Source of the DNA: a virus
Length of the DNA: 57,271 nt
Strand: one strand, 5' to 3'
IMG/VR virus record: IMGVR_UViG_3300045918_000348
Coordinates: 1-57,271 of that record
The notes beneath the pieces were generated by a model. It did no database searches, was not told where the DNA came from, and saw only the letters and a program-made list of their open reading frames with translations. A program made the position numbers and the translations under genes. Below, piece by piece: positions 38,713 to 50,269 of this stretch (its first letter is position 1; every line of letters starts with the position of its first letter).

Positions 38713-39081
38713 TTAAATCTCCTTCATTAAATAAACAATATCTTGCTGTGCCGCGTGCAACTTAAATCCCAATGATAACATTATAGTTAGCATAGTGTGT
38801 CCAAACGGTGTATTTGGAACAACTGAGCCTGCAAGCTTATGTAAACCTTTTTGTTTAGCAATTTCTACGACCTCATTTAGTAACTGAACACCACGTCCAT
38901 TTTTTCGTTCTTCTTCTACAACAAATATATCCTGTAGATAACAAGAATCAGGGTACAGTTTATAAATTGCAAATCCCCAACTATACTCAATGAGATGCCC
39001 ACCTTCACGCTCCATTACATATTGACTGTGAAGTGATTTAACCATCGGTAAGGACACTTGTTTATCAACTTGTGAGTCCAT
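38713..39081 (-). CDS. GNAT-family N-acetyltransferase
   Basis: Motif A-like VVEEERKNGRGVQLLNEVVEIAKQKG (R/QxxGxG). Confidence 0.6.
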   Translation of the reverse strand: MDSQVDKQVSLPMVKSLHSQYVMEREGGHLIEYSWGFAIYKLYPDSCYLQDIFVVEEERKNGRGVQLLNEVVEIAKQKGLHKLAGSVVPNTPFGHTMLTIMLSLGFKLHAAQQDIVYLMKEI

Positions 39082-42020
39082 TAAGTAGTCCCAAATGACT
39101 GGCCACTTGGAAGTTTGCCAGTACCCTGTTTAGCTCCAGCCATTACGGTGATTGCCGAAATTGACAGGCCCTCACCTATTGTGTCCTGAACATCTTCAAT
39201 TAGCAGTTTAATAGATTGACACTTTTGAATCCCAAAATCAATACGGGCCTGATATGGTGTACCACTACCACCATAAATACCTTCACCATATGGACTTACA
39301 TCACCATACCTAGAAGTATCTACAAATTGGGCAGGGTCTATTATCACTTCATCTACCCAAGCATCTTTAAAATCATAAGCCACCCTTACACGCAACTTGT
39401 GGGCCGACTTATAAGTTCCAATGATGAGGGCCCTATAAACGCGCTGTAAACCCTGCATCTCTGTTAATGAAAGCCAAGCAGTTTCTACGCGCATTTTAAT
39501 TGGGCTTGCTGCATCTGCAAATGATGAACGGTTTTCTTTATAAAGCGCACCATCTTCTCGCAAATAATAGTAATCATTTAAAATGACTATGGATGATAAA
39601 GCTCCATGATTTTCAAAAGTTGCCCACTTCCCAAGTGCATAATTAAATACTAAAGTTGTATCTATGTCCAATGTAAAACGAACTTGATTGAGGGCTCCAA
39701 CAATTTGAGCCGACGTTATTGTGCGGTCATTATAAGCTTCAACCCTAACACCAATATATTCAAGAGCTAACCCATGAGTAATTTGATAAATCCCTTTACG
39801 ACTTTTAAACATTAGACCATTTGGTGTAAGGACAATTGAATCTGGTTGTATGCAGCCAATATCCATCCCAATTATTTCAGGTAGGTTTAGCGTATCTTGT
39901 TGGCCTAAATTGTTAGGGCCCTCACCAGATAAGAAAAAGCAGGCATCTTTCGACCATGCAATCATTTTATCGTCGATGGACCTTATTGCAGTTAGTGCAC
40001 CACCAGCAGGGTCAACATCTCGATATATAAGGTCGGTAAACTCTACGGGCCTACCTTCATCAACCATCTTACTAAAATAAATGCGATTTGAGTCTTCACC
40101 AATTACACATAAACGGTTAGAGTAATATACAGCCACTTGACTGCAGGCTGGTGCACTTATATTTTCGATTACTCCACCTGTAGTATATAAAGTTTCTCTA
40201 CTAATTAAAGTTGCATCAGCTATGGTGTCTGTAAAGCTCACAGTATCCACGGTCTTATCATTTGCAAGTGGTGATAAATCATCGGTAACTTTATAATAAG
40301 TAGTACCAGCAGCTTCAGTTCGGTATAAATCAATTTTAACATTAGACTTATCAGTTATGCGTAAAGTTGGTATTGCAACGGTTACTATTTGTGTTGATGT
40401 TCCACCACTTAATGTTGATGTGAGGGGTAGCGGTGTAGGTGTACTTAAGTGGTCACGTCCATTGTTGTCTACCCATCGGTAAACTGCAACATAACCGTAT
40501 GAACCATTAGACATTGAACCACCAGTTGTAGCAGTTGCACTTTGGCTAAGTGATTCTGGATAAATGTGAAATCCATGTTCACTTAAGGTGCTACCATCAT
40601 AGATACGTAGTAAACCTGCACAAATATGTAAACTATCCGCTAGTAGCGCATTTGAATACTTATTGGCTGGATTAAAGTCTATCGTAACTGCTTGAACGCC
40701 TTTAGTAGAGTAGAAAGTTCCGCTATCGCCGACAAGTCTACTTTTAAATAGGAGAGGCAGCATAATGCGGCCATCATCAAGTACTGATGGAGCTGGGACT
40801 ACTCCCCACGTAAGGACACCACTAGCAGTTTGGTCTGCATACTTGGTAACTATAAAGCCCGTTGAATCAACTACAAAATAAGTTGCTTGCAGGGCACTCT
40901 CATGCACAACAGAAACCATTTGAGTGGTTCCATAGTAGAAAGGTTCACTTGCAAGACCGACCGAGCGCATAAATACTGTGGGTGTACTAACAGTTCCACT
41001 TAAATTTAGTGTTGCAGATTTAACATAGTTATTTGATGTACCTGCTTGGGCCACTTCATAATAAAGTTTATAAGTATGGTCCAATTGTTGAATTGTGCTG
41101 CAGTTGGTGACATTTGACACCGACTCAATTAAAGTTACACCGAGGAGGGCAGACGTTAAAGCAAATGAATATATGGTTGCCTTAATAGTAGTAGTTGAAG
41201 CAAAAGTAAGAAGGACACGTGCATCTGGGTCCAACGTAATTTCAAGTGCATTAGTTGCAGTTTGTCCACTTATCCCGATAGTTGAGCTTTGTGTTCCAGC
41301 AGAGTTAATATAAAACATAGATGGAACTGCCCCATTATATGCAACAAATATTCGGTCACTTGCTTGGGTCACATCTATTAGACCTAGTGTCGCATGTCTG
41401 TCTGAAGCTGCTGTAGTGGCACTTGAAAGTACATCTGGATTGAAAATTGAAAATGTTTTATATTTAAGGTTTGTTGAATCCCCGTAAAAAATAAAAACTT
41501 GTCCCTGTACAACACCAACTTGTGGTCTCTCCCCAGTTGCACTTACAGTACCATTTGATACAAGGAAACTTTTCGTTGTAATGTCTTGTACGCTATATCG
41601 TATACCAGTAGAGCCTTCACGCCATGCAAAAATTTGTAAACCATTTGATATAACACTTGAAACTTGGTCTTGGTCATTTGCACTTTTGTATACACTTGAT
41701 ACGCGAGGCACAGCAGTTGATAGTTGGCCACGTTCGACCCACTTTAATGCGGCTTCTGAGTAACTGTAAAGTTTAGTTGGGCTGAGAACTAGAAGTTCTT
41801 CTTTATATTTTGCAAGTTTAACTGCATCTGTTATAGATGAACCATTAAGGTCTTTAAGTTCTTGCAAATCATACCCATTACGTTTACGAAACTGCTTTAA
41901 AGTTTCATACACAATATTCTCTGCTTTACGCAAAAAACCAACTTCACCCTGTTTTGGGTCAACCTTAGTATCAAGGCCCTGGTCTATTTGTAAGGGCACT
42001 AACTGCTTTTGTAAAGCCAC
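39081..42020 (-). CDS. large tail structural protein (979 aa)
   Basis: Largest ORF of the structural operon, downstream of the head genes. The function is inferred from size and position only. Confidence 0.7.
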   Translation of the reverse strand: MALQKQLVPLQIDQGLDTKVDPKQGEVGFLRKAENIVYETLKQFRKRNGYDLQELKDLNGSSITDAVKLAKYKEELLVLSPTKLYSYSEAALKWVERGQLSTAVPRVSSVYKSANDQDQVSSVISNGLQIFAWREGSTGIRYSVQDITTKSFLVSNGTVSATGERPQVGVVQGQVFIFYGDSTNLKYKTFSIFNPDVLSSATTAASDRHATLGLIDVTQASDRIFVAYNGAVPSMFYINSAGTQSSTIGISGQTATNALEITLDPDARVLLTFASTTTIKATIYSFALTSALLGVTLIESVSNVTNCSTIQQLDHTYKLYYEVAQAGTSNNYVKSATLNLSGTVSTPTVFMRSVGLASEPFYYGTTQMVSVVHESALQATYFVVDSTGFIVTKYADQTASGVLTWGVVPAPSVLDDGRIMLPLLFKSRLVGDSGTFYSTKGVQAVTIDFNPANKYSNALLADSLHICAGLLRIYDGSTLSEHGFHIYPESLSQSATATTGGSMSNGSYGYVAVYRWVDNNGRDHLSTPTPLPLTSTLSGGTSTQIVTVAIPTLRITDKSNVKIDLYRTEAAGTTYYKVTDDLSPLANDKTVDTVSFTDTIADATLISRETLYTTGGVIENISAPACSQVAVYYSNRLCVIGEDSNRIYFSKMVDEGRPVEFTDLIYRDVDPAGGALTAIRSIDDKMIAWSKDACFFLSGEGPNNLGQQDTLNLPEIIGMDIGCIQPDSIVLTPNGLMFKSRKGIYQITHGLALEYIGVRVEAYNDRTITSAQIVGALNQVRFTLDIDTTLVFNYALGKWATFENHGALSSIVILNDYYYLREDGALYKENRSSFADAASPIKMRVETAWLSLTEMQGLQRVYRALIIGTYKSAHKLRVRVAYDFKDAWVDEVIIDPAQFVDTSRYGDVSPYGEGIYGGSGTPYQARIDFGIQKCQSIKLLIEDVQDTIGEGLSISAITVMAGAKQGTGKLPSGQSFGTT

Positions 42021-43043: not shown

Positions 43044-43727
43044 TTAATTGCTTCCGCGTCTATAAGGGTCCATTATCTCTTGATATACATCAGTAACCGT
43101 TGGGGCAATATTGGCATCTCTATGTTGGCTTTTCTCACGTATGCGTTTTTCAAGCATCTGTTTTTGGCCAACTAGTAAGGTTACGTCTGACTCTTCTTTT
43201 TGCATCATCTTGATGGCTGCATCAACTATCACAAATTCTGAGTAGGCATTGAAGTCCTCTAAAGTATCGGTATCATCTACCAATTTAGTTGCTAGTGGAA
43301 CATACCAAATACGACATTCAGCAGTTCGGTCTGGCATAGGACTAAATCTAAGGGTCTGACCAACGAGGCGATACCTAATGTTAGCTATACCCATGTAGTC
43401 CCAGTAACGAAAGTTAGATGTTCTATTGCGCTCGTTAAAATTGTATCGTGAAATCGTCATATAATTAACACTATCAACTTTGACATCTACACCTTTAAGG
43501 TCATAGAAATCTGCAGGTAGGTTATAAGCTTCAGTCCCACTTACGATTGGAATTATATCTGATTTTAAAAAGTACTCAGAACCATAGCTCTCACTTAAAA
43601 TGTCATGTAATTCTGCAATAGAATTATTGAGGTAGCCCGTCAATTCAGCATCACTGACAAATTGGCTATTAACCATATCAGCACGTTGTCGGCTTTGAGT
43701 TTTGAGTTCACCTAATGTTATAGTCAC
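43044..43727 (-). CDS. putative head-tail adaptor / connector protein (227 aa)
   Basis: Position between the head and tail genes. No firm motif. Confidence 0.55.
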   Translation of the reverse strand: MTITLGELKTQSRQRADMVNSQFVSDAELTGYLNNSIAELHDILSESYGSEYFLKSDIIPIVSGTEAYNLPADFYDLKGVDVKVDSVNYMTISRYNFNERNRTSNFRYWDYMGIANIRYRLVGQTLRFSPMPDRTAECRIWYVPLATKLVDDTDTLEDFNAYSEFVIVDAAIKMMQKEESDVTLLVGQKQMLEKRIREKSQHRDANIAPTVTDVYQEIMDPYRRGSN

Positions 43728-43733
43728 TTGAAC

Positions 43734-43979
43734 TTACTCCATTTCTGAAGCTTCTTCAGGTCCTTCATCCATACACATAGATTGAAATGCTCGAAGAGAT
43801 TCTGCCAAAGCTTTTGGGTCTTTTTGTTCGATTGCAGCTAGTATATCATCTGCAGCGGCTTGGTATTCATCAACTTCTTCTTGTGTATCTCGGTTTTCTC
43901 TATCATCCATAGGATTGTTAGGCTGCATCTTCGACAAAATCAAAGTAGCCTTACTATTTTTATCATCTTTCATCAACAT
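43734..43979 (-). CDS. acidic protein (81 aa from the ATG behind AAGGAGC)
   Basis: The track ORF starts at GTG 44003. The internal ATG at 43979 has a much better SD. Confidence 0.55.
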   Translation of the reverse strand: MLMKDDKNSKATLILSKMQPNNPMDDRENRDTQEEVDEYQAAADDILAAIEQKDPKALAESLRAFQSMCMDEGPEEASEME

Positions 43980-43989
43980 TTTAAGCTCC

Positions 43990-44023
43990 TTGAAAAGAAA
44001 CACTCAAAGTTATCCTCTGAGTG
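43990..44023 (-). terminator. putative intrinsic terminator after the decoration genes
   Basis: Stem CACTCA / TGAGTG (44001..44006 and 44018..44023) followed on the minus strand by TTTCTTTTC. Confidence 0.4.
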
Positions 44024-44030
44024 TTTTTAT

Positions 44031-45446
44031 TTAACTTAATAAACCTGAATTTTTTAATTCAAATTTAACTAATACTTTTGTTCCATTTGACGGGTCTACT
44101 GCAGTTGCACCAGTTAGTAATAAAATTCTAACACTTTTTGTATGAATAGAATCTGCTTTTATTTGCATACGTATATCTTGTGCACTAGAACTTTGAATAA
44201 TACCTCTCAAGTACTTTACAACCATATAAGCATCATCAAAAGTAATAGTATAATCACCTACATCATTACGTACTACTGAAGTAACTCCAAATCCACTATT
44301 AATTGATGGTTGTGATGCAACACCACCAGAGAATATAGCTACTACGCCATCACCTTCTCCACCATCAACCATATTTTGAGCACCACCACCAGTTGCCGTT
44401 TGAAGGATTCGTAATGAACTCGCATCTGTAATAGTTACTGATTTGCCTGATACTGCACCAGTAGAGATAAGTTCTCTTAGTTCTGCTGTAGTTAAATATA
44501 CTGGAGTAATTGATACTGGAATAGATGAAGTAGTCGCAGCACTAAATGTTACGGCTCCTGTGAGGGCTATAAAACGTGCATCACTAGTTCCTGAACCACC
44601 ATCGACAGTAACACTTGCAGTTGCAATTACTGTACCTTTAAATGCACCAGTTCCAGATACATTTATTGTTGCTGATGAACCACATACCCAATAGACATTT
44701 GAAGCCAAAGCCCCACCAGTTAGTGCTATTGTTGGAGTGCCACCTGCACCAGTAATTAGTGTTGACGAACATCTAAATACAAATATATCAGTTGCAGACC
44801 CATTTAGAGTTAGAGTAGCATTTCCTGATGTAGCCAAATTGAATGTCCCAGATGTTTCGGTATATACTCCTGCACTTAAAGTTTGACCATCTAAATTAGC
44901 TGTAATTGATGTAGCACTTCTAGTTGATAGGTCTGTATAAGCAGCACCAGCATCAATCATGGCTTGGTTAGCTGCAGCATCAGTAATATGCTGAACTCCA
45001 CTAACTGTTCCTGGTGGAAACCCAGTTACAGATGTACCTGGATATAAACCAAGATTTCCTGTCAAAACTGTTGCACCAGTGTTAGTAATTGTAGAAGATG
45101 CTAATACAGCATAACTTGCTGAAGTTAATAAAGCAGGACTTCCAGACGGTGGAGTTGGAGCAGTGTTAGTACCATCATTAGGTGTAATAGTACATACAAT
45201 TGCTGCAGATGTGCCTGAAAAGTTTGCTAATACAGTATTTGTTGGATTAGGTTGAGCAGTCACAACTTGTGTCGTAAATGTATTAGTATTTCGTGAAGGT
45301 CCAGATGCAACTGATGTCAGCGTAATGTCATTTGTAAGGTCTAATATAGCTGTTGCTGCTGAATTGTTTCCTGCAGTAAATTTAAGATAAAGGTCTTTTA
45401 CTTCACGCTCTAAGGCTTGCTTAGAGTTGAATAATCTCGATGCCAT
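44031..45446 (-). CDS. decoration-like protein carrying an ice-binding-like (DUF3494) domain
   Basis: SYAVLASSTITNTGATVLTGNLGLYPGTSVTGFPPG ... AYTDL ... LSAGVYT ... DIFVFRCSSTL ... SNVYWVCGSSATI fits DUF3494. The N- and C-termini are homologous to the 124-aa protein at 45457..45831. Confidence 0.8.
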   Translation of the reverse strand: MASRLFNSKQALEREVKDLYLKFTAGNNSAATAILDLTNDITLTSVASGPSRNTNTFTTQVVTAQPNPTNTVLANFSGTSAAIVCTITPNDGTNTAPTPPSGSPALLTSASYAVLASSTITNTGATVLTGNLGLYPGTSVTGFPPGTVSGVQHITDAAANQAMIDAGAAYTDLSTRSATSITANLDGQTLSAGVYTETSGTFNLATSGNATLTLNGSATDIFVFRCSSTLITGAGGTPTIALTGGALASNVYWVCGSSATINVSGTGAFKGTVIATASVTVDGGSGTSDARFIALTGAVTFSAATTSSIPVSITPVYLTTAELRELISTGAVSGKSVTITDASSLRILQTATGGGAQNMVDGGEGDGVVAIFSGGVASQPSINSGFGVTSVVRNDVGDYTITFDDAYMVVKYLRGIIQSSSAQDIRMQIKADSIHTKSVRILLLTGATAVDPSNGTKVLVKFELKNSGLLS

Positions 45447-45456
45447 TTAATACTCC

Positions 45457-45831
45457 TTAAACTACGGTTGTATTTTTAACTTCAATTTTGAGTACCAAGA
45501 TTGAGCCGGATGAAGGGTCGGCTGGGCTTGCACCTGTAAGGGTGAAAAAGTTAATTGCCTTAGTAACATTTACATCTTCAGATTTTATTTGGATGCGAAT
45601 ATCTTCTGCGCTTGATTTTAGTAATGCACCTTCAAAAAATTTTAAAGAGCTATATTTATCTTCTAGGATAAGTGAATAATCACCAGTACTGTTACGAGCA
45701 ATTGATAAAATACCATAGTTATTGGCAGCTACCAGAGTTGGTGCTCCAGATGAACCAATTGAAACTTTACAATATAAGTCTTTTACTTCTTTTTCTAAAC
45801 TTTGTCTTCTATTAAACGAACGATTTGCCAT
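45457..45831 (-). CDS. putative head decoration protein (124 aa)
   Basis: First gene after the capsid gene. Paralogous to the two ends of 44031..45446. Confidence 0.6.
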   Translation of the reverse strand: MANRSFNRRQSLEKEVKDLYCKVSIGSSGAPTLVAANNYGILSIARNSTGDYSLILEDKYSSLKFFEGALLKSSAEDIRIQIKSEDVNVTKAINFFTLTGASPADPSSGSILVLKIEVKNTTVV

Positions 45832-45913: not shown

Positions 45914-45946
45914 ATAAAAAAACCCCATCCGAAGATGAGGTTTTAA
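45914..45946 (-). terminator. intrinsic terminator downstream of the major capsid gene
   Basis: Minus strand reads AAAACCTCATC-TTCG-GATGGGGTTTTTTTATT: a 7-bp stem with one G-U pair, a tetraloop and a T-run. Confidence 0.7.
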
Positions 45947-45970: not shown

Positions 45971-47188
45971 TTATGATAATTTTAGGTTGGCATTGAAACC
46001 AGGACCACGACAGCCTACTTGTGCATAGTACACTACTCGTACTTCAACTGCATCAGCAGAAGCTTCTCTTAGCATTTTAAGACCGTCAGAATCTTGGATT
46101 CGTGGGCATTTGCCAAGTGAGTAAAGTTTCCATACATCAAGTTGAAGCAAGAAGCCTCTGTCTGATGGACAGTTTTGGTCAGGTATAACTTTCACTGGGC
46201 CTTTTGGTCCGTGAACTTCTACTCCTCTAAAGCTTACAGTAGCATCACCAGTTTTAACGGCTTCGCCAATATATTGAACTTTAGAACCTAAAGATTTAAC
46301 TAACTCATCCCATTTTGTGTAGTTCACAAATAAGTGAGATGGAGTTCCACCTTCACGGCTAACTCTATGGATACCGCTCATGATAGCTTCTTCAATTGGT
46401 AAAGCTGAACCATCTATACGAATACCACCAAGACGTGTCTTGTCAACTGAACGGTCAACAGAGAAGAATGGTGTTGCAGATGGAGCACTGTTTGGAAGCC
46501 AAGCTTGAAGACCTTTGATTTTGCTGTCATAATCACCTTCGATGAAGATGTAGTCATTTGCAGCAACACCAGAACCAGAAGCAATTCCTGATAAAGCATC
46601 AACTGTTAATTCACCACTGTCTCGGTCGATATTAGTGATTGAAACTGAACCAGCTTTAAGTGAACCACCACCATCAGCAGTAGAAAACTTCAATTTTTGT
46701 CCAACTTCAAAGTTAGTTACGTCATCTGCATTTTTAAGTTGCAAAGAAGTACTTGTTACTGAAGCATTACACTGACCGATTGAACCAGAACCACTGCGAT
46801 ACATTGCGATTGCAAGTGAGCGAGTAAGTTGGTTGATTGCGCCGTCGATTTCAGTAGTTGCAGCTTCCATAAAAGCATTTGCATCACCTTTAGAAGCCTC
46901 AAGGACCTCGTTATCAATTGATGCCAAAGCAAAGTCATGGTCTCTTATCAATACGAAATCAGAGATTTTTGAAGCTGTTTTGTTAGCTTGTGCAGTTGCA
47001 AAGGCTGCGCTACGTCCTTGTGGGTTACCAAATATGATTGGAATTGGTAAATTTTTACCACCGAAATTTTCCATTTTTGGCATAAGAGCTAAAAGTGGGT
47101 TATTTTTATAAACCATATTCATAATACGGTCTGAAGTATAGTGCTGTTTAAGGGCACTGTTAAAACTTGTCATGTCTAGAGAAGCCAT
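45971..47188 (-). CDS. major capsid protein
   Basis: 405 aa, directly after the scaffold-like gene and followed by a strong terminator. Called from position and size. Confidence 0.7.
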   Translation of the reverse strand: MASLDMTSFNSALKQHYTSDRIMNMVYKNNPLLALMPKMENFGGKNLPIPIIFGNPQGRSAAFATAQANKTASKISDFVLIRDHDFALASIDNEVLEASKGDANAFMEAATTEIDGAINQLTRSLAIAMYRSGSGSIGQCNASVTSTSLQLKNADDVTNFEVGQKLKFSTADGGGSLKAGSVSITNIDRDSGELTVDALSGIASGSGVAANDYIFIEGDYDSKIKGLQAWLPNSAPSATPFFSVDRSVDKTRLGGIRIDGSALPIEEAIMSGIHRVSREGGTPSHLFVNYTKWDELVKSLGSKVQYIGEAVKTGDATVSFRGVEVHGPKGPVKVIPDQNCPSDRGFLLQLDVWKLYSLGKCPRIQDSDGLKMLREASADAVEVRVVYYAQVGCRGPGFNANLKLS

Positions 47189-48397: not shown

Positions 48398-50269
48398 TTA
48401 CTGAACAGGAGCCTGTTGTGGAGCGGCTTGTTGTGGTTGCTGTTCATCTTCTTCTGGTGCAGGAGTCTGTTGTGCTAATTGTTCAGAAGCCATTTGTTGC
48501 ATTTGTAGTGCTTGTTCTTGTTGTTGACGGCCTTGGTCAATAACTGAACGCTGCATCAAAGCATTTGCATCTTCAACCCAACGACGAATTAATTCTAAAC
48601 GCGATTCTGGAGCATTTTCCGACCTAAATAGAAGGTATGCTTGTTGCATCTTCTTGATACCGCCACCCAAATCTTGATAAGGTTCTGGTGTAGTATACTC
48701 TCCATGCTCAATTATCTTTTCAATTACCATATTAATATCTTCACCTGCAGCAGTTTCAAATTGGTAGAAGCCTTGTAAGTCAGGAAAATCAAGAAGCTTC
48801 AAAGCATCTTCGCGACTTACGAAACCTGCTTGAATAAGTTCTTGTATATCTTGTAATTTTCCTGCGGGACTAGCAGAGAGTGCCGAAGATGGAAATAGAG
48901 ACATTATATATTGGTCTTTATCAAGAGAAACATCTTTCCACTTGATAGTTTCCATAAATTTCTTGCCCTTAACTTTAATAGAATATTTTCCATCCATATC
49001 ACTATCAATTTCTTTTGCAAGTTCGATAAAGTGTTCAGCAGCATCTAAAAAAGTGCGTTCATATCGTTGAGCATTAGACATAAAGCGTTCAGTTTCAAGG
49101 TCATTATATTCGCGAATGGCTTTACCACTATCAAGGCCTGCAGGCTTAGCAGCATTTGCAGTTAATTGACTGATGCCAATAATTTCATATGCACGTTGAT
49201 AGAGACGGTCTAAGTGGCTGAAAAGTTCCGTAGGAATGGTTCCAAGTTGACCTGGAGTTGGCACTTGACCACTATATTTTATAATTCCACCGATACGGTT
49301 ATCTAGGTGAGAATCAACAATTTTACTCGATGCCTCAACAAATATTTTAGGTACACTTATCAAGTGCATAGACACTTGTATAGTTTTTAGAATTTTATTA
49401 ATTTCTAATTGCAGGCCAGTGAGCTGCTCACTAATACCTTGACCAAAAAATCCAAGGGGTCGTGTATTCCATCTGAAAAATATAAATGGGAATTTATCTG
49501 CATTATATTCTTCTCTAAATAAAGTTGTATTATTGATGGTAATGGCATGTACTCCATCTTTAGCTTCTGAGGCCGACGGTAAGTGCCAACTCTCAATAAC
49601 TAAAATCATATCAGATGATTGTCCACCTGCAGAACTATAGTAGGTAGTAGTGTCATGAGCCGCCATATCAATTGCAAGCGCATCTTTCGGAAACATTTCC
49701 TTCAATACATCTTTATGAATAAATTTCTTTTGGTGCATTTGGCGAGGCTCACCATAAAAGCTCTCTCTATCATCAACAATAACTTCATCAATAAAAACGC
49801 GCTCAACTTTAATATTAACGCCATCTTTAAATATTTTTAGGCACCCTGTTCCGAATATGCAGGCATCTTGGAACGCCACAGTTGCTTTATCATAAAATTT
49901 AGTAGCTTGAAACTGACCTTCAACAAACTGGCTTAACTTTTTAGCAACTCTTTGTTGCATGAAGTTTCCACCCTCAGTTAAAAAGGTAGGCTTTGGTCTA
50001 TTTTTACCTATCTTAGAAACTGCGGTGTCAACCATACTTTGAATTATATTCATTGTTACTCGGTTTTGAATAGAGTTTAGGGGCTCCGAACGCTGATACT
50101 GGTATGACCGCAAGTTAGCCAAATCATAGTTTCCATACAACTTCATGTGCTTAAAATTATCATTTTGTCTATAGGCTTGGTCTTGGTCTAGATATTTAAG
50201 ATAAGAAAAAACGGATTGATGAACTTCTTTCTCATCATCTTTCCACCAGTAATACTGCTTATTGTCCAC
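48398..50269 (-). CDS. portal protein
   Basis: 623 aa, upstream of the scaffold and capsid genes, with a Gln/Pro-rich C-terminal tail. GTG start. Confidence 0.7.
   Translation of the reverse strand: MDNKQYYWWKDDEKEVHQSVFSYLKYLDQDQAYRQNDNFKHMKLYGNYDLANLRSYQYQRSEPLNSIQNRVTMNIIQSMVDTAVSKIGKNRPKPTFLTEGGNFMQQRVAKKLSQFVEGQFQATKFYDKATVAFQDACIFGTGCLKIFKDGVNIKVERVFIDEVIVDDRESFYGEPRQMHQKKFIHKDVLKEMFPKDALAIDMAAHDTTTYYSSAGGQSSDMILVIESWHLPSASEAKDGVHAITINNTTLFREEYNADKFPFIFFRWNTRPLGFFGQGISEQLTGLQLEINKILKTIQVSMHLISVPKIFVEASSKIVDSHLDNRIGGIIKYSGQVPTPGQLGTIPTELFSHLDRLYQRAYEIIGISQLTANAAKPAGLDSGKAIREYNDLETERFMSNAQRYERTFLDAAEHFIELAKEIDSDMDGKYSIKVKGKKFMETIKWKDVSLDKDQYIMSLFPSSALSASPAGKLQDIQELIQAGFVSREDALKLLDFPDLQGFYQFETAAGEDINMVIEKIIEHGEYTTPEPYQDLGGGIKKMQQAYLLFRSENAPESRLELIRRWVEDANALMQRSVIDQGRQQQEQALQMQQMASEQLAQQTPAPEEDEQQPQQAAPQQAPVQ

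What the first reader, a model, noticed from the sequence alone, without database searches (positions are those of the whole stretch)
44031..45831. Paralogous decoration-like proteins, one with an inserted ice-binding-like (DUF3494) beta-solenoid domain
Two genes lie directly downstream of the capsid gene. The 124-aa product (45457..45831) aligns with both ends of the 471-aa product (44031..45446). At the N-terminus, MANRSFNRRQSLEKEVKDLYCK aligns with MASRLFNSKQALEREVKDLYLK. At the C-terminus, GDYSLILEDKY ... IRIQIKSEDV ... LTGASPADPSSGSILVLKIEVKN aligns with GDYTITFDDAY ... IRMQIKADSI ... LTGATAVDPSNGTKVLVKFELKN. The extra ~340 residues (about 35-375) in the longer protein include the ice-binding protein family signature (AVLASSTITNTGATVLTGNLGLYPGTSVTGFPPG ... 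NVYWVCGSSATI). The arrangement suggests a capsid-surface protein that displays an adhesin or ice-binding-type domain. That is unusual for a decoration protein and may relate to attachment to surfaces, polysaccharide or ice.
Basis: partly seen in the sequence, partly recalled or inferred. Interest (0 to 1): 0.62.

Follow-up and report, generated by a model that had tools for sequence, protein, structure and literature searches.

The report
Phage surface protein displaying ice-binding-like domain
An uncultivated phage encodes two copies of a small accessory protein next to its capsid gene, and one copy carries an undescribed "stalk" module with a complete ice-binding-type domain nested inside it, probably as a particle-surface adhesin; nothing here shows it binds ice.

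Summary
The 124-aa (45457..45831) and 471-aa (44031..45446) products are paralogs: N-termini 53% identical (E=6e-10), C-termini 41% identical (E=8e-23). The longer one holds a genuine DUF3494/PF11999 domain (E=1e-37; model TM 0.81 to EfcIBP, PDB 6EIO).

New findings:
- The insert is nested in three levels: scaffold, then a split ~125-aa "XY" module, then the IBP at the X|Y junction. In relatives, further XY copies nest at that same junction (XY, XXYY, XXXYYY, X5Y5, always balanced).
- The scaffold ("S") family is large (1,889 cluster representatives) and has no Pfam, PHROG or PDB match. It sits between the MCP and the adaptor in 66 of 69 related loci and is absent from three, so it is accessory.
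- The IBP is a shuffled cassette: 70-79% identical to copies in unrelated phage scaffolds, but only 41-56% to IBPs in other S proteins.

A "decoration protein" role is plausible from position and dispensability, but it is unproven. S shows no homology to any known decoration protein.

Ice binding is compatible with a conserved Thr/Ser/Ala face but was not tested. This scan noted the same cassette class on two other genomes, and viral PF11999 genes have been published as "AMGs".

Verdict: a new variant of the Hoc-like display principle, moderately interesting.

The parts
45971..47188 (-). Major capsid protein (405 aa), HK97-type, SU10-like
   Evidence: PF17236 E=5.9e-5 and phrog_14242 E=1.4e-13. 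Syntenic in 86+80 related loci.
45919..45944 (-). Intrinsic terminator-like hairpin plus T-run between the MCP stop and the S1 start
   Evidence: 11-bp stem followed by a T-run. A hairpin plus T-run of differing sequence occurs in 61 of 102 distinct MCP-S intergenic regions of relatives.
45457..45831 (-). S1: 124-aa scaffold protein, with an N-terminal helix (residues 5-13) and an 8-strand beta-sandwich
   Evidence: AF2 pLDDT 87.9. Family of 69 close proteins and 1,889 cluster representatives. AAGGAG ribosome-binding site.
44031..45446 (-). S2: 471-aa paralog with architecture S(N) - X - IBP - Y - S(C)
45363..45446 (-). S2 residues 1-28: conserved N-terminal helix and first strand of the scaffold (putative anchor)
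   Evidence: 53% identical to S1. The family's nearly invariant residues R4, Q10, L12, E13, E15, K17 and Y20 are retained.
45168..45350 (-). X half of the XY module (residues 33-93)
   Evidence: X HMM E=1.9e-37. Aligns with X of the 251-aa relatives.
44517..45149 (-). DUF3494 / ice-binding-like beta-solenoid (residues ~100-310) with a PPSGSP entry linker
   Evidence: PF11999 E=1.1e-37. pLDDT 94-98. Foldseek 6EIO TM 0.81, rmsd 1.8 A; all 31 significant hits are IBPs.
44322..44501 (-). Y half of the XY module (residues 316-375)
   Evidence: Y HMM E=3.9e-39. 70-80% identical to Y in unrelated phage proteins.
44043..44321 (-). S2 C-terminal beta-sandwich (residues 376-468)
   Evidence: 41% identical to S1 residues 39-120. 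pLDDT 72-91.
43734..44003 (-). Small acidic protein (89 aa) conserved between S and the adaptor; context only
   Evidence: A 72-125-aa acidic ORF sits at the same place in relatives, including those that lack S.
43044..43727 (-). SU10-type head-to-tail adaptor (227 aa); marks the end of the head module
   Evidence: PF24175 E=6.7e-16.

Best explanation
S1 and S2 are paralogs of a widespread but undescribed small beta-sandwich protein family of uncultivated SU10-like podophages. The family is encoded between the MCP and the adaptor and is dispensable for particle assembly. It is most likely an accessory virion-surface protein, probably head-bound. S2 keeps the scaffold's conserved N-terminal helix and first strand and its C-terminal sandwich, which are the inferred anchor. 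Its first inter-strand loop holds a nested display device. An XY module has N-half and C-half that come together (inferred from the strictly balanced X/Y bracket architectures), so it acts as a stalk. A DUF3494 beta-solenoid is inserted at the X|Y junction, at the tip. DUF3494 suits loop insertion because its first and last coils are adjacent. The solenoid presents a conserved, flat Thr/Ser/Ala-rich face that would bind an extended repetitive surface, either polysaccharide/EPS/cell-surface glycan or ice. The particle would thus gain weak multivalent adhesion, as T4 Hoc does with Ig-like domains. A terminator after the MCP gene suggests S1 and S2 are made in lower amounts than the MCP. Shown here: the paralogy, the domain identities, the nesting pattern, the synteny, the dispensability and the cassette shuffling. 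Inferred: location on the virion, X-Y pairing, the ligand and the stoichiometry.
For: - Paralogy.
- PF11999 match and fold.
- The 251-aa relatives equal S2 minus the IBP.
- X/Y census: 64 of the 67 X/Y-positive proteins are balanced bracket words (XY 47, XXYY 11, XXXYYY 4, X5Y5 1, X[XY][XY]Y 1); the other 3 are Y-only hits.
- The IBP and the nested XY copies both enter right after the 'TPNDGTN' motif and exit before 'PVxLTTAEL': direct reading.
- XY also occurs in tail-tube (PF18906) and nozzle-like virion proteins.
- Synteny portal..MCP-S-[S2]-adaptor in 86 S-selected loci. In 66 of 69 complete MCP-selected loci.
- S is absent or replaced by homing-endonuclease-like genes in 3 close relatives.
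- No copies in 185,579 species-representative cellular genomes.
- IBP cassette 70-79% identical in other scaffolds against 41-56% within the S family. P0168 and P0172 lie in a different S clade.
- The putative B-face is 13/16 small residues, has an invariant Thr ladder, and is more conserved than the rest of the domain (0.88 vs 0.71): mapped via and PMC7277481.
- Adjacent termini in the DUF3494 fold: PMC11645318, PMC7277481.
- Terminator.
Against: - There is no direct evidence that S proteins are in the virion or on the capsid.
- S has no homology to any known decoration protein or to SU10 gp10.
- Its fold matches in BFVD are mainly tail-fibre or tailspike distal domains.
- The XY segments were modelled with low confidence (pLDDT below 50), so X-Y pairing rests on architecture statistics only.
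- The B-face mapping is by sequence alignment, without coordinates.
Confidence: 0.6

Rival explanations
1. The displayed domain really binds ice. Virions carrying S2 would attach to ice surfaces or veins, or inhibit local recrystallisation. That would keep particles near ice-associated hosts or protect them through freeze-thaw cycles.
For: The domain is 43% identical to EfcIBP (6EIO), an experimentally active IBP, with rmsd 1.8 A. It has a Thr/Ser/Ala-rich, highly conserved putative B-face with T-x-D/N/S strands like EfcIBP's T-x-T/T-x-D (PMC7277481). Viral PF11999 homologs are more abundant in polar oceans (PMC11515562).
Against: DUF3494 also occurs in substrate-binding proteins of temperate organisms (PMC12337378). 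The 'column 2' residues here are Ser/Thr/Ala rather than all Ala, a pattern linked to weaker ice activity (PMC12337378). An earlier scan follow-up on a soil-type phage reached no evidence for ice binding either.
Confidence: 0.2
2. S proteins are not capsid decoration. They are tail- or neck-associated fibre tips or receptor-binding accessories, and the XY-IBP of S2 is a host-recognition module.
For: BFVD fold hits at E~1e-5 and TM 0.5-0.66 to C-terminal domains of tail fibres and tailspikes. Weak PDB resemblance to the AP22 gp53 fibre tip and to trimeric TNF-like or lectin sandwiches. XY modules also occur in tail-tube and nozzle-like proteins.
Against: The gene lies upstream of the adaptor, immediately after the MCP, in every locus. 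The protein has 124 aa with only a 9-residue helix and no shaft or known tail-attachment domain. It is absent in 3 close relatives that keep the whole tail module. The beta-sandwich similarity is generic.
Confidence: 0.2
3. S2 is a non-structural auxiliary metabolic gene: a soluble IBP made during infection to cryoprotect the host, as proposed for viral PF11999 genes.
For: This is the published interpretation of viral ice-binding-like genes in Arctic viromes (PMC11515562).
Against: The IBP is embedded inside a paralog of a head-module protein. There is no signal peptide: the N-terminus is the conserved scaffold helix. It lies in the late structural operon between the MCP and the adaptor. The same cassette is inserted in other capsid-adjacent proteins (earlier notes e1-3507198, e1-3539175).
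Confidence: 0.05

Closest known systems
T4 Hoc (and T5 pb10): auxiliary capsid decoration proteins with a capsid-binding domain plus exposed Ig-like domains
   Same: Encoded in the head module, dispensable, and modular. A conserved anchor is combined with variable exposed adhesin-type domains, and the length varies by domain number (Hoc: PMC10385173).
   Different: No sequence or fold homology. The display domains here are inserted inside a loop of the anchor domain and nested recursively, not strung end to end. The cargo is a DUF3494 beta-solenoid and an undescribed XY module, not Ig-like domains. Capsid binding is not shown.
SU10 gp10 (Ig-like domain protein between MCP gp9 and adaptor gp11)
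   Same: Same genomic slot in a phage with a related portal, MCP and adaptor. It was also only presumed to be a minor capsid protein and was not seen in the cryo-EM map (PMC9509320).
   Different: No detectable relationship (hhalign probability 0.2%). A different fold is predicted.
DUF3494 / IBP-1 ice-binding proteins, especially EfcIBP (6EIO) and AnpIBP (7BWX/7BWY)
   Same: Pfam match, 35-43% identity, and the same discontinuous beta-solenoid with a flanking helix. The putative binding face is rich in small residues and Thr.
   Different: Cellular IBPs are secreted free proteins, or tandem or anchored proteins with signal peptides (for example P0275 and P0277). Here the domain is an internal insert in a phage structural-module protein. 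Ice activity is untested.
Viral 'ice-binding-like' AMGs reported from polar viromes (PMC11515562)
   Same: A PF11999 domain encoded by phage genomes.
   Different: Those were read as host-cryoprotection genes without structural context. Here the domain is part of a virion-module paralog and behaves as a shuffled display cassette.

Membership tests
DUF3494 / PF11999 ice-binding-like | Pfam HMM match above the gathering threshold | tested here: met
   130.2 bits against a cut-off of 28.7, E=1.1e-37, covering 206 of 208 profile positions.
DUF3494 / PF11999 ice-binding-like | Discontinuous beta-solenoid braced by a long alpha-helix | tested here: met
   AF2 pLDDT 94-98 with helix 157-174. Foldseek gives 31 significant hits, all IBPs, with 6EIO at TM 0.81 and rmsd 1.8 A.
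DUF3494 / PF11999 ice-binding-like | Flat B-face dominated by small residues or Thr (the ice-binding site) | tested here: inconclusive
   13 of 16 mapped outward positions are A/G/S/T. T260, T280 and T300 are invariant in 34 cassettes. The mapping is by alignment to AnpIBP (PMC7277481), not by coordinates.
DUF3494 / PF11999 ice-binding-like | Measured ice binding (thermal hysteresis, IRI, ice shaping) | not testable with these tools
   Needs recombinant protein.
Capsid decoration / auxiliary head proteins (Hoc, pb10, gpD, Soc, Dec, epsilon15 gp10) | Encoded in the head module next to the MCP | tested here: met
   MCP-S-[S2]-small acidic-adaptor order in the window and in 66 of 69 MCP-selected loci.
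Capsid decoration / auxiliary head proteins (Hoc, pb10, gpD, Soc, Dec, epsilon15 gp10) | Dispensable for capsid assembly | tested here: met
   This is indirect: 3 close relatives (MCP 58-75% identical) lack S entirely.
Capsid decoration / auxiliary head proteins (Hoc, pb10, gpD, Soc, Dec, epsilon15 gp10) | Sequence or fold homology to a known decoration protein | tested here: not met
   No Pfam or PHROG hit. No PDB sequence hit. No significant PDB fold hit, best E=0.14. No relation to SU10 gp10.
Capsid decoration / auxiliary head proteins (Hoc, pb10, gpD, Soc, Dec, epsilon15 gp10) | Bound to the outer capsid surface | not testable with these tools
   Needs virion proteomics or cryo-EM. No cultured relative was found in 50,697 phage records.
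Tail-fibre / tailspike distal receptor-binding domains | Beta-sandwich fold similar to fibre tips | tested here: inconclusive
   BFVD E~1e-5, TM 0.5-0.66. PDB matches are not significant.
Tail-fibre / tailspike distal receptor-binding domains | N-terminal shaft or tail-attachment region and a location in the tail module | tested here: not met
   The protein has 124 aa with only helix 5-13 ahead of the sandwich. The gene lies upstream of the adaptor.
Viral auxiliary metabolic gene (free IBP for host cryoprotection) | Stand-alone, secretable protein outside the structural module | tested here: not met
   The IBP is internal to a structural-module paralog and there is no signal peptide.

The most novel reading that the evidence does not exclude
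Phage particles themselves carry functional ice-binding domains on extendable, self-nesting XY stalks. This would make them ice-adhering virions, and the 'IBP AMGs' reported from polar viromes would in fact be virion-surface modules.
Probability: 0.2. Interest if true: 0.85.

Novelty: new variant of a known kind. Interest (0 to 1): 0.6.

Why it matters
- It would extend the Hoc-type principle, in which accessory virion proteins display adhesin domains, to a new scaffold, a new cargo (DUF3494) and a new way of building length. Here one split domain nests recursively at a single junction, up to five deep.
- It offers a structural reinterpretation of the viral "ice-binding-like AMGs" reported from polar viromes.
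- It defines two sizeable undescribed protein families: the S scaffold (1,889 cluster representatives) and the XY module. Both tolerate large loop insertions and could serve as natural display platforms.
- If ice binding were shown, it would be, as far as the searched literature shows, the first ice-binding virion.

Tried and rejected
- **tblastn against 50,697 phage records.** S1, S2, the MCP, the XY module and a distant S member (P0067) gave no match. No cultured relative is available to link to proteomics or cryo-EM.
- **Homology of S to SU10 gp10.** Rejected (hhalign 0.2%).
- **Homology of S to the other IBP-bearing scaffolds (P0276, P0279).** Not significant (5% and 0.2%).
- **PHROG/Pfam on neighbours of the other IBP-bearing proteins (L013, L014).** Uninformative.
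- **XY profile against the PDB.** No hit even at E=10.
- **AF2 of the 471-aa protein.** It did not resolve X and Y (pLDDT below 50). MAFFT could not align the nested architectures well; alignments A3, A5 and A6 were discarded after checking.
- **Genome-contig scan for S.** None found, so no prophage copies and no host hint.
- **Recent foreign origin of the insert.** Not supported: GC3 of the IBP segment (0.115) matches its flanks.
- **C-domain tree.** Too few columns to date the S1/S2 duplication precisely.

Full report
**Context.** The window is a complete 57,271-bp virus record with direct terminal repeats. Its minus-strand late arm reads as follows:
- portal (48398..50269; SU10/P22-type)
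- a 329-aa ORF
- MCP (45971..47188; SU10_MCP, phrog_14242)
- the 124-aa ORF
- the 471-aa ORF
- an 89-aa acidic ORF
- SU10-type adaptor (43044..43727)
- tail genes

None of the MCP, the 124-aa protein or the 471-aa protein has a tblastn match in 50,697 deposited phage genomes. This lineage is known only from metagenomes.

**Observation.** Both parts hold.
- BLASTP aligns residues 39-120 of the small protein with 386-466 of the large one (41% identity, E=8e-23). It also aligns the first 34 residues of each (53% identity, E=6e-10).
- PF11999 matches residues 114-305 of the large protein at 130 bits, against a cut-off of 28.7.
- The best solved relative is the Antarctic consortium IBP 6EIO (E=7e-39).
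- An AlphaFold model gives pLDDT 94-98 over residues ~100-310.
- All 31 significant Foldseek PDB matches are DUF3494 IBPs. 6EIO is the best at TM 0.81, rmsd 1.8 A and 43% identity.

**The scaffold family (S).**
- The 124-aa protein has 69 close metagenomic relatives.
- A profile of them finds 1,889 cluster representatives at E<=1e-3 among 1.84 billion proteins. Most are 120-135 aa.
- It has no Pfam, PHROG or PDB sequence match.
- Its model (pLDDT 87.9) is a short N-terminal helix followed by an eight-strand beta-sandwich.
- No PDB fold match is significant: the best is E=0.14, with only faint resemblance to trimeric TNF-like, lectin and fibre-tip sandwiches.
- In BFVD it matches C-terminal domains of tail fibres and tailspikes, and small uncharacterised phage proteins, at E~1e-5 and TM 0.5-0.66.
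- SU10 has a gene in the same slot, gp10. It was predicted to be Ig-like, presumed to be a minor capsid protein, and not seen in the cryo-EM map (PMC9509320). S is unrelated to it (hhalign 0.2%).

**Synteny and dispensability.**
- In 86 S-selected loci the order is always portal..MCP-S-[second S]-adaptor. The tally is 69 with one S, 8 with S + S-X-Y-S, 4 with S + S, and single cases of S + S-XX-YY-S, S + S-XXX-YYY-S, S-IBP-S + S, a truncated S + S-X, and the window's S + S-X-IBP-Y-S.
- In an MCP-selected set, 66 of 69 complete MCP-to-adaptor intervals carry S: 60 single and 6 double. Three carry none.
- In those three, the slot holds a GIY-YIG-like gene, an HNH-like gene, or nothing. The small acidic protein and the adaptor remain.
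- S is therefore nearly universal in this group but not needed to build a particle, which is the signature of an accessory protein.
- No copy exists in 185,579 species-representative bacterial and archaeal genomes.
- A strong hairpin plus T-run follows the MCP stop in the window (45944-45919). An equivalent terminator of varying sequence occurs in 61 of 102 distinct MCP-S spacers. S genes are therefore probably expressed by read-through, at lower levels than the MCP. Both S genes have AGGAG ribosome-binding sites.

**Nested architecture.**
- Relatives with a 251/252-aa second paralog (P0070, P0071) align with the 471-aa protein over everything except the IBP.
- The non-IBP insert is thus a ~125-aa module made of an N-half X (window residues 33-93) and a C-half Y (316-375).
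- I built HMMs of X and Y and ran them over all retrieved proteins. The results were XY in 47, XXYY in 11, XXXYYY in 4, X5Y5 in 1 and X[XY][XY]Y in 1. The other 3 of the 67 hits were Y-only: two short proteins (126 and 149 aa) and one match at the very N-terminus of a 421-aa protein.
- A tandem XYXY occurs in one nozzle-like protein.
- Apart from the three Y-only hits, every architecture is a balanced bracket word. That is what is expected if X and Y are two halves of one fold and new copies insert at the X|Y junction. It is very unlikely if X and Y were independent repeats.
- The IBP enters right after the 'TPNDGTN' motif and leaves just before 'PVxLTTAEL'. The nested XY copies in the 390/522-aa relatives do the same (read directly).
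- So S2 is three levels deep: scaffold loop, then XY, then IBP.
- Geometrically this is a hairpin-like stalk whose length is set by the number of XY levels, with the cargo at the tip.
- The AF2 run did not resolve X and Y (pLDDT below 50), because MAFFT could not align the nested relatives well. X-Y pairing therefore remains an inference.
- XY has no Pfam, PHROG, PDB or cultured-phage match.
- XY is 70-80% identical across unrelated host proteins. These include PF18906/phrog_290 tail proteins and nozzle-like proteins. That fits a promiscuous virion-surface module.

**The IBP is a shuffled cassette.**
- Other S-family members carry an IBP directly in the same scaffold loop without XY: P0168, P0172, P0182 and L072.
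- P0168 and P0172 fall in a different, well-supported S clade from the window's pair.
- The window's IBP is 70-79% identical to cassettes inside at least two other small phage scaffolds, the P0276/78/86/88 type and the P0279/87/P0306 type. It is only 56%, 42% and 41% identical to the IBPs in L072/P0182, P0168 and P0172.
- It is 49-56% identical to secreted tandem bacterial IBPs (P0275, P0277).
- Those other scaffolds show no significant relation to S.
- One of them, in L014, lies downstream of a portal gene and a terminase-like gene. Whether the flanking 330-aa ORF is the MCP could not be confirmed, since it has no family hit.
- The domain has therefore entered phage structural-module proteins repeatedly.
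- The canonical DUF3494 topology puts the final coil beside the first (PMC11645318, PMC7277481). That explains why it tolerates loop insertion.
- GC3 of the insert matches its flanks, so it is not a recent foreign arrival.

**Does it bind ice?** This cannot be decided here.
- I mapped AnpIBP's published ice-binding strands (PMC7277481) through the alignment. The equivalent outward positions in the phage domain are 13/16 Ala/Gly/Ser/Thr.
- T260, T280 and T300 are invariant across 34 phage cassettes.
- This face is more conserved than the domain as a whole (0.88 vs 0.71).
- That marks a conserved binding surface of the ice-binding type.
- However, DUF3494 also occurs in substrate-binding proteins of temperate organisms. 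Ser/Thr-rich 'column 2' patterns are associated with weaker ice activity (PMC12337378).

**Prior knowledge.**
- Viral PF11999 genes have been reported from Arctic viromes and read as host-cryoprotection AMGs (PMC11515562). No paper in the searched library links DUF3494 to phage structural proteins.
- Within this scan, two earlier notes on other genomes (e1-3507198, e1-3539175) describe a DUF3494 domain inside a capsid-adjacent phage protein. The follow-up on the second reached the same 'surface adhesin, ice unproven' reading. The cassette class is therefore not new to the scan.
- What is new here is the S family, the paralog pair, the XY self-nesting module and the three-level nesting.

**Verdict.**
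- The most likely mechanism is Hoc-like multivalent adhesion by an accessory virion-surface protein. Its anchor is shared with a plain paralog, and its cargo sits on a nested stalk (confidence about 0.6).
- Capsid versus tail location, and ice versus glycan ligand, remain open.

Noticed in passing
window 43734-44003 (-): An 89-aa strongly acidic protein lies between S2 and the adaptor. An equivalent 72-125-aa acidic ORF is retained at this place in all relatives inspected, including those that lack S. It may be a conserved small head-completion or ejection-related protein.
   Followed up: partly
L063:7343-10363; L025:6240-9023; L044:8806-10449: The large nozzle-like proteins of some relatives carry XY modules (tandem XYXY in L063). 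The window's 979-aa homolog (39081..42020) carries none.
   Followed up: partly
proteins P0152, P0153, P0232 (S-family members): There is a second insertion site in the S scaffold, in the loop near residue ~100-107. It carries other, unidentified Ala/Asp-rich domains of 130-250 aa. The scaffold therefore has at least two permissive loops.
   Followed up: no
L096:4844-5548; L121:4852-5259: GIY-YIG-like and HNH-like homing-endonuclease genes occupy the S slot in two relatives. Several other relatives have 0.5-2 kb MCP-S spacers (for example L017, L022, L106) that may hold similar mobile genes.
   Followed up: partly
L008:3491-5639; L070, L071, L073, L075 (MCP region): In several relatives the MCP is called in two pieces (for example 83 aa + 285 aa, or 47 aa + 208 aa with an Endonuclease_7 gene between them). 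This suggests an intron, an intein or a homing-endonuclease gene interrupting the capsid gene.
   Followed up: no
window 38713-39081 (-): A 122-aa ORF inside the tail module contains a GNAT-like 'RKNGRGVQLL...' motif by eye. It was not tested.
   Followed up: no
protein P0081 (522 aa): This protein has the architecture X[XY][XY]Y: two tandem XY units nested inside an outer XY. It is the only mixed tandem and nested case seen.
   Followed up: partly
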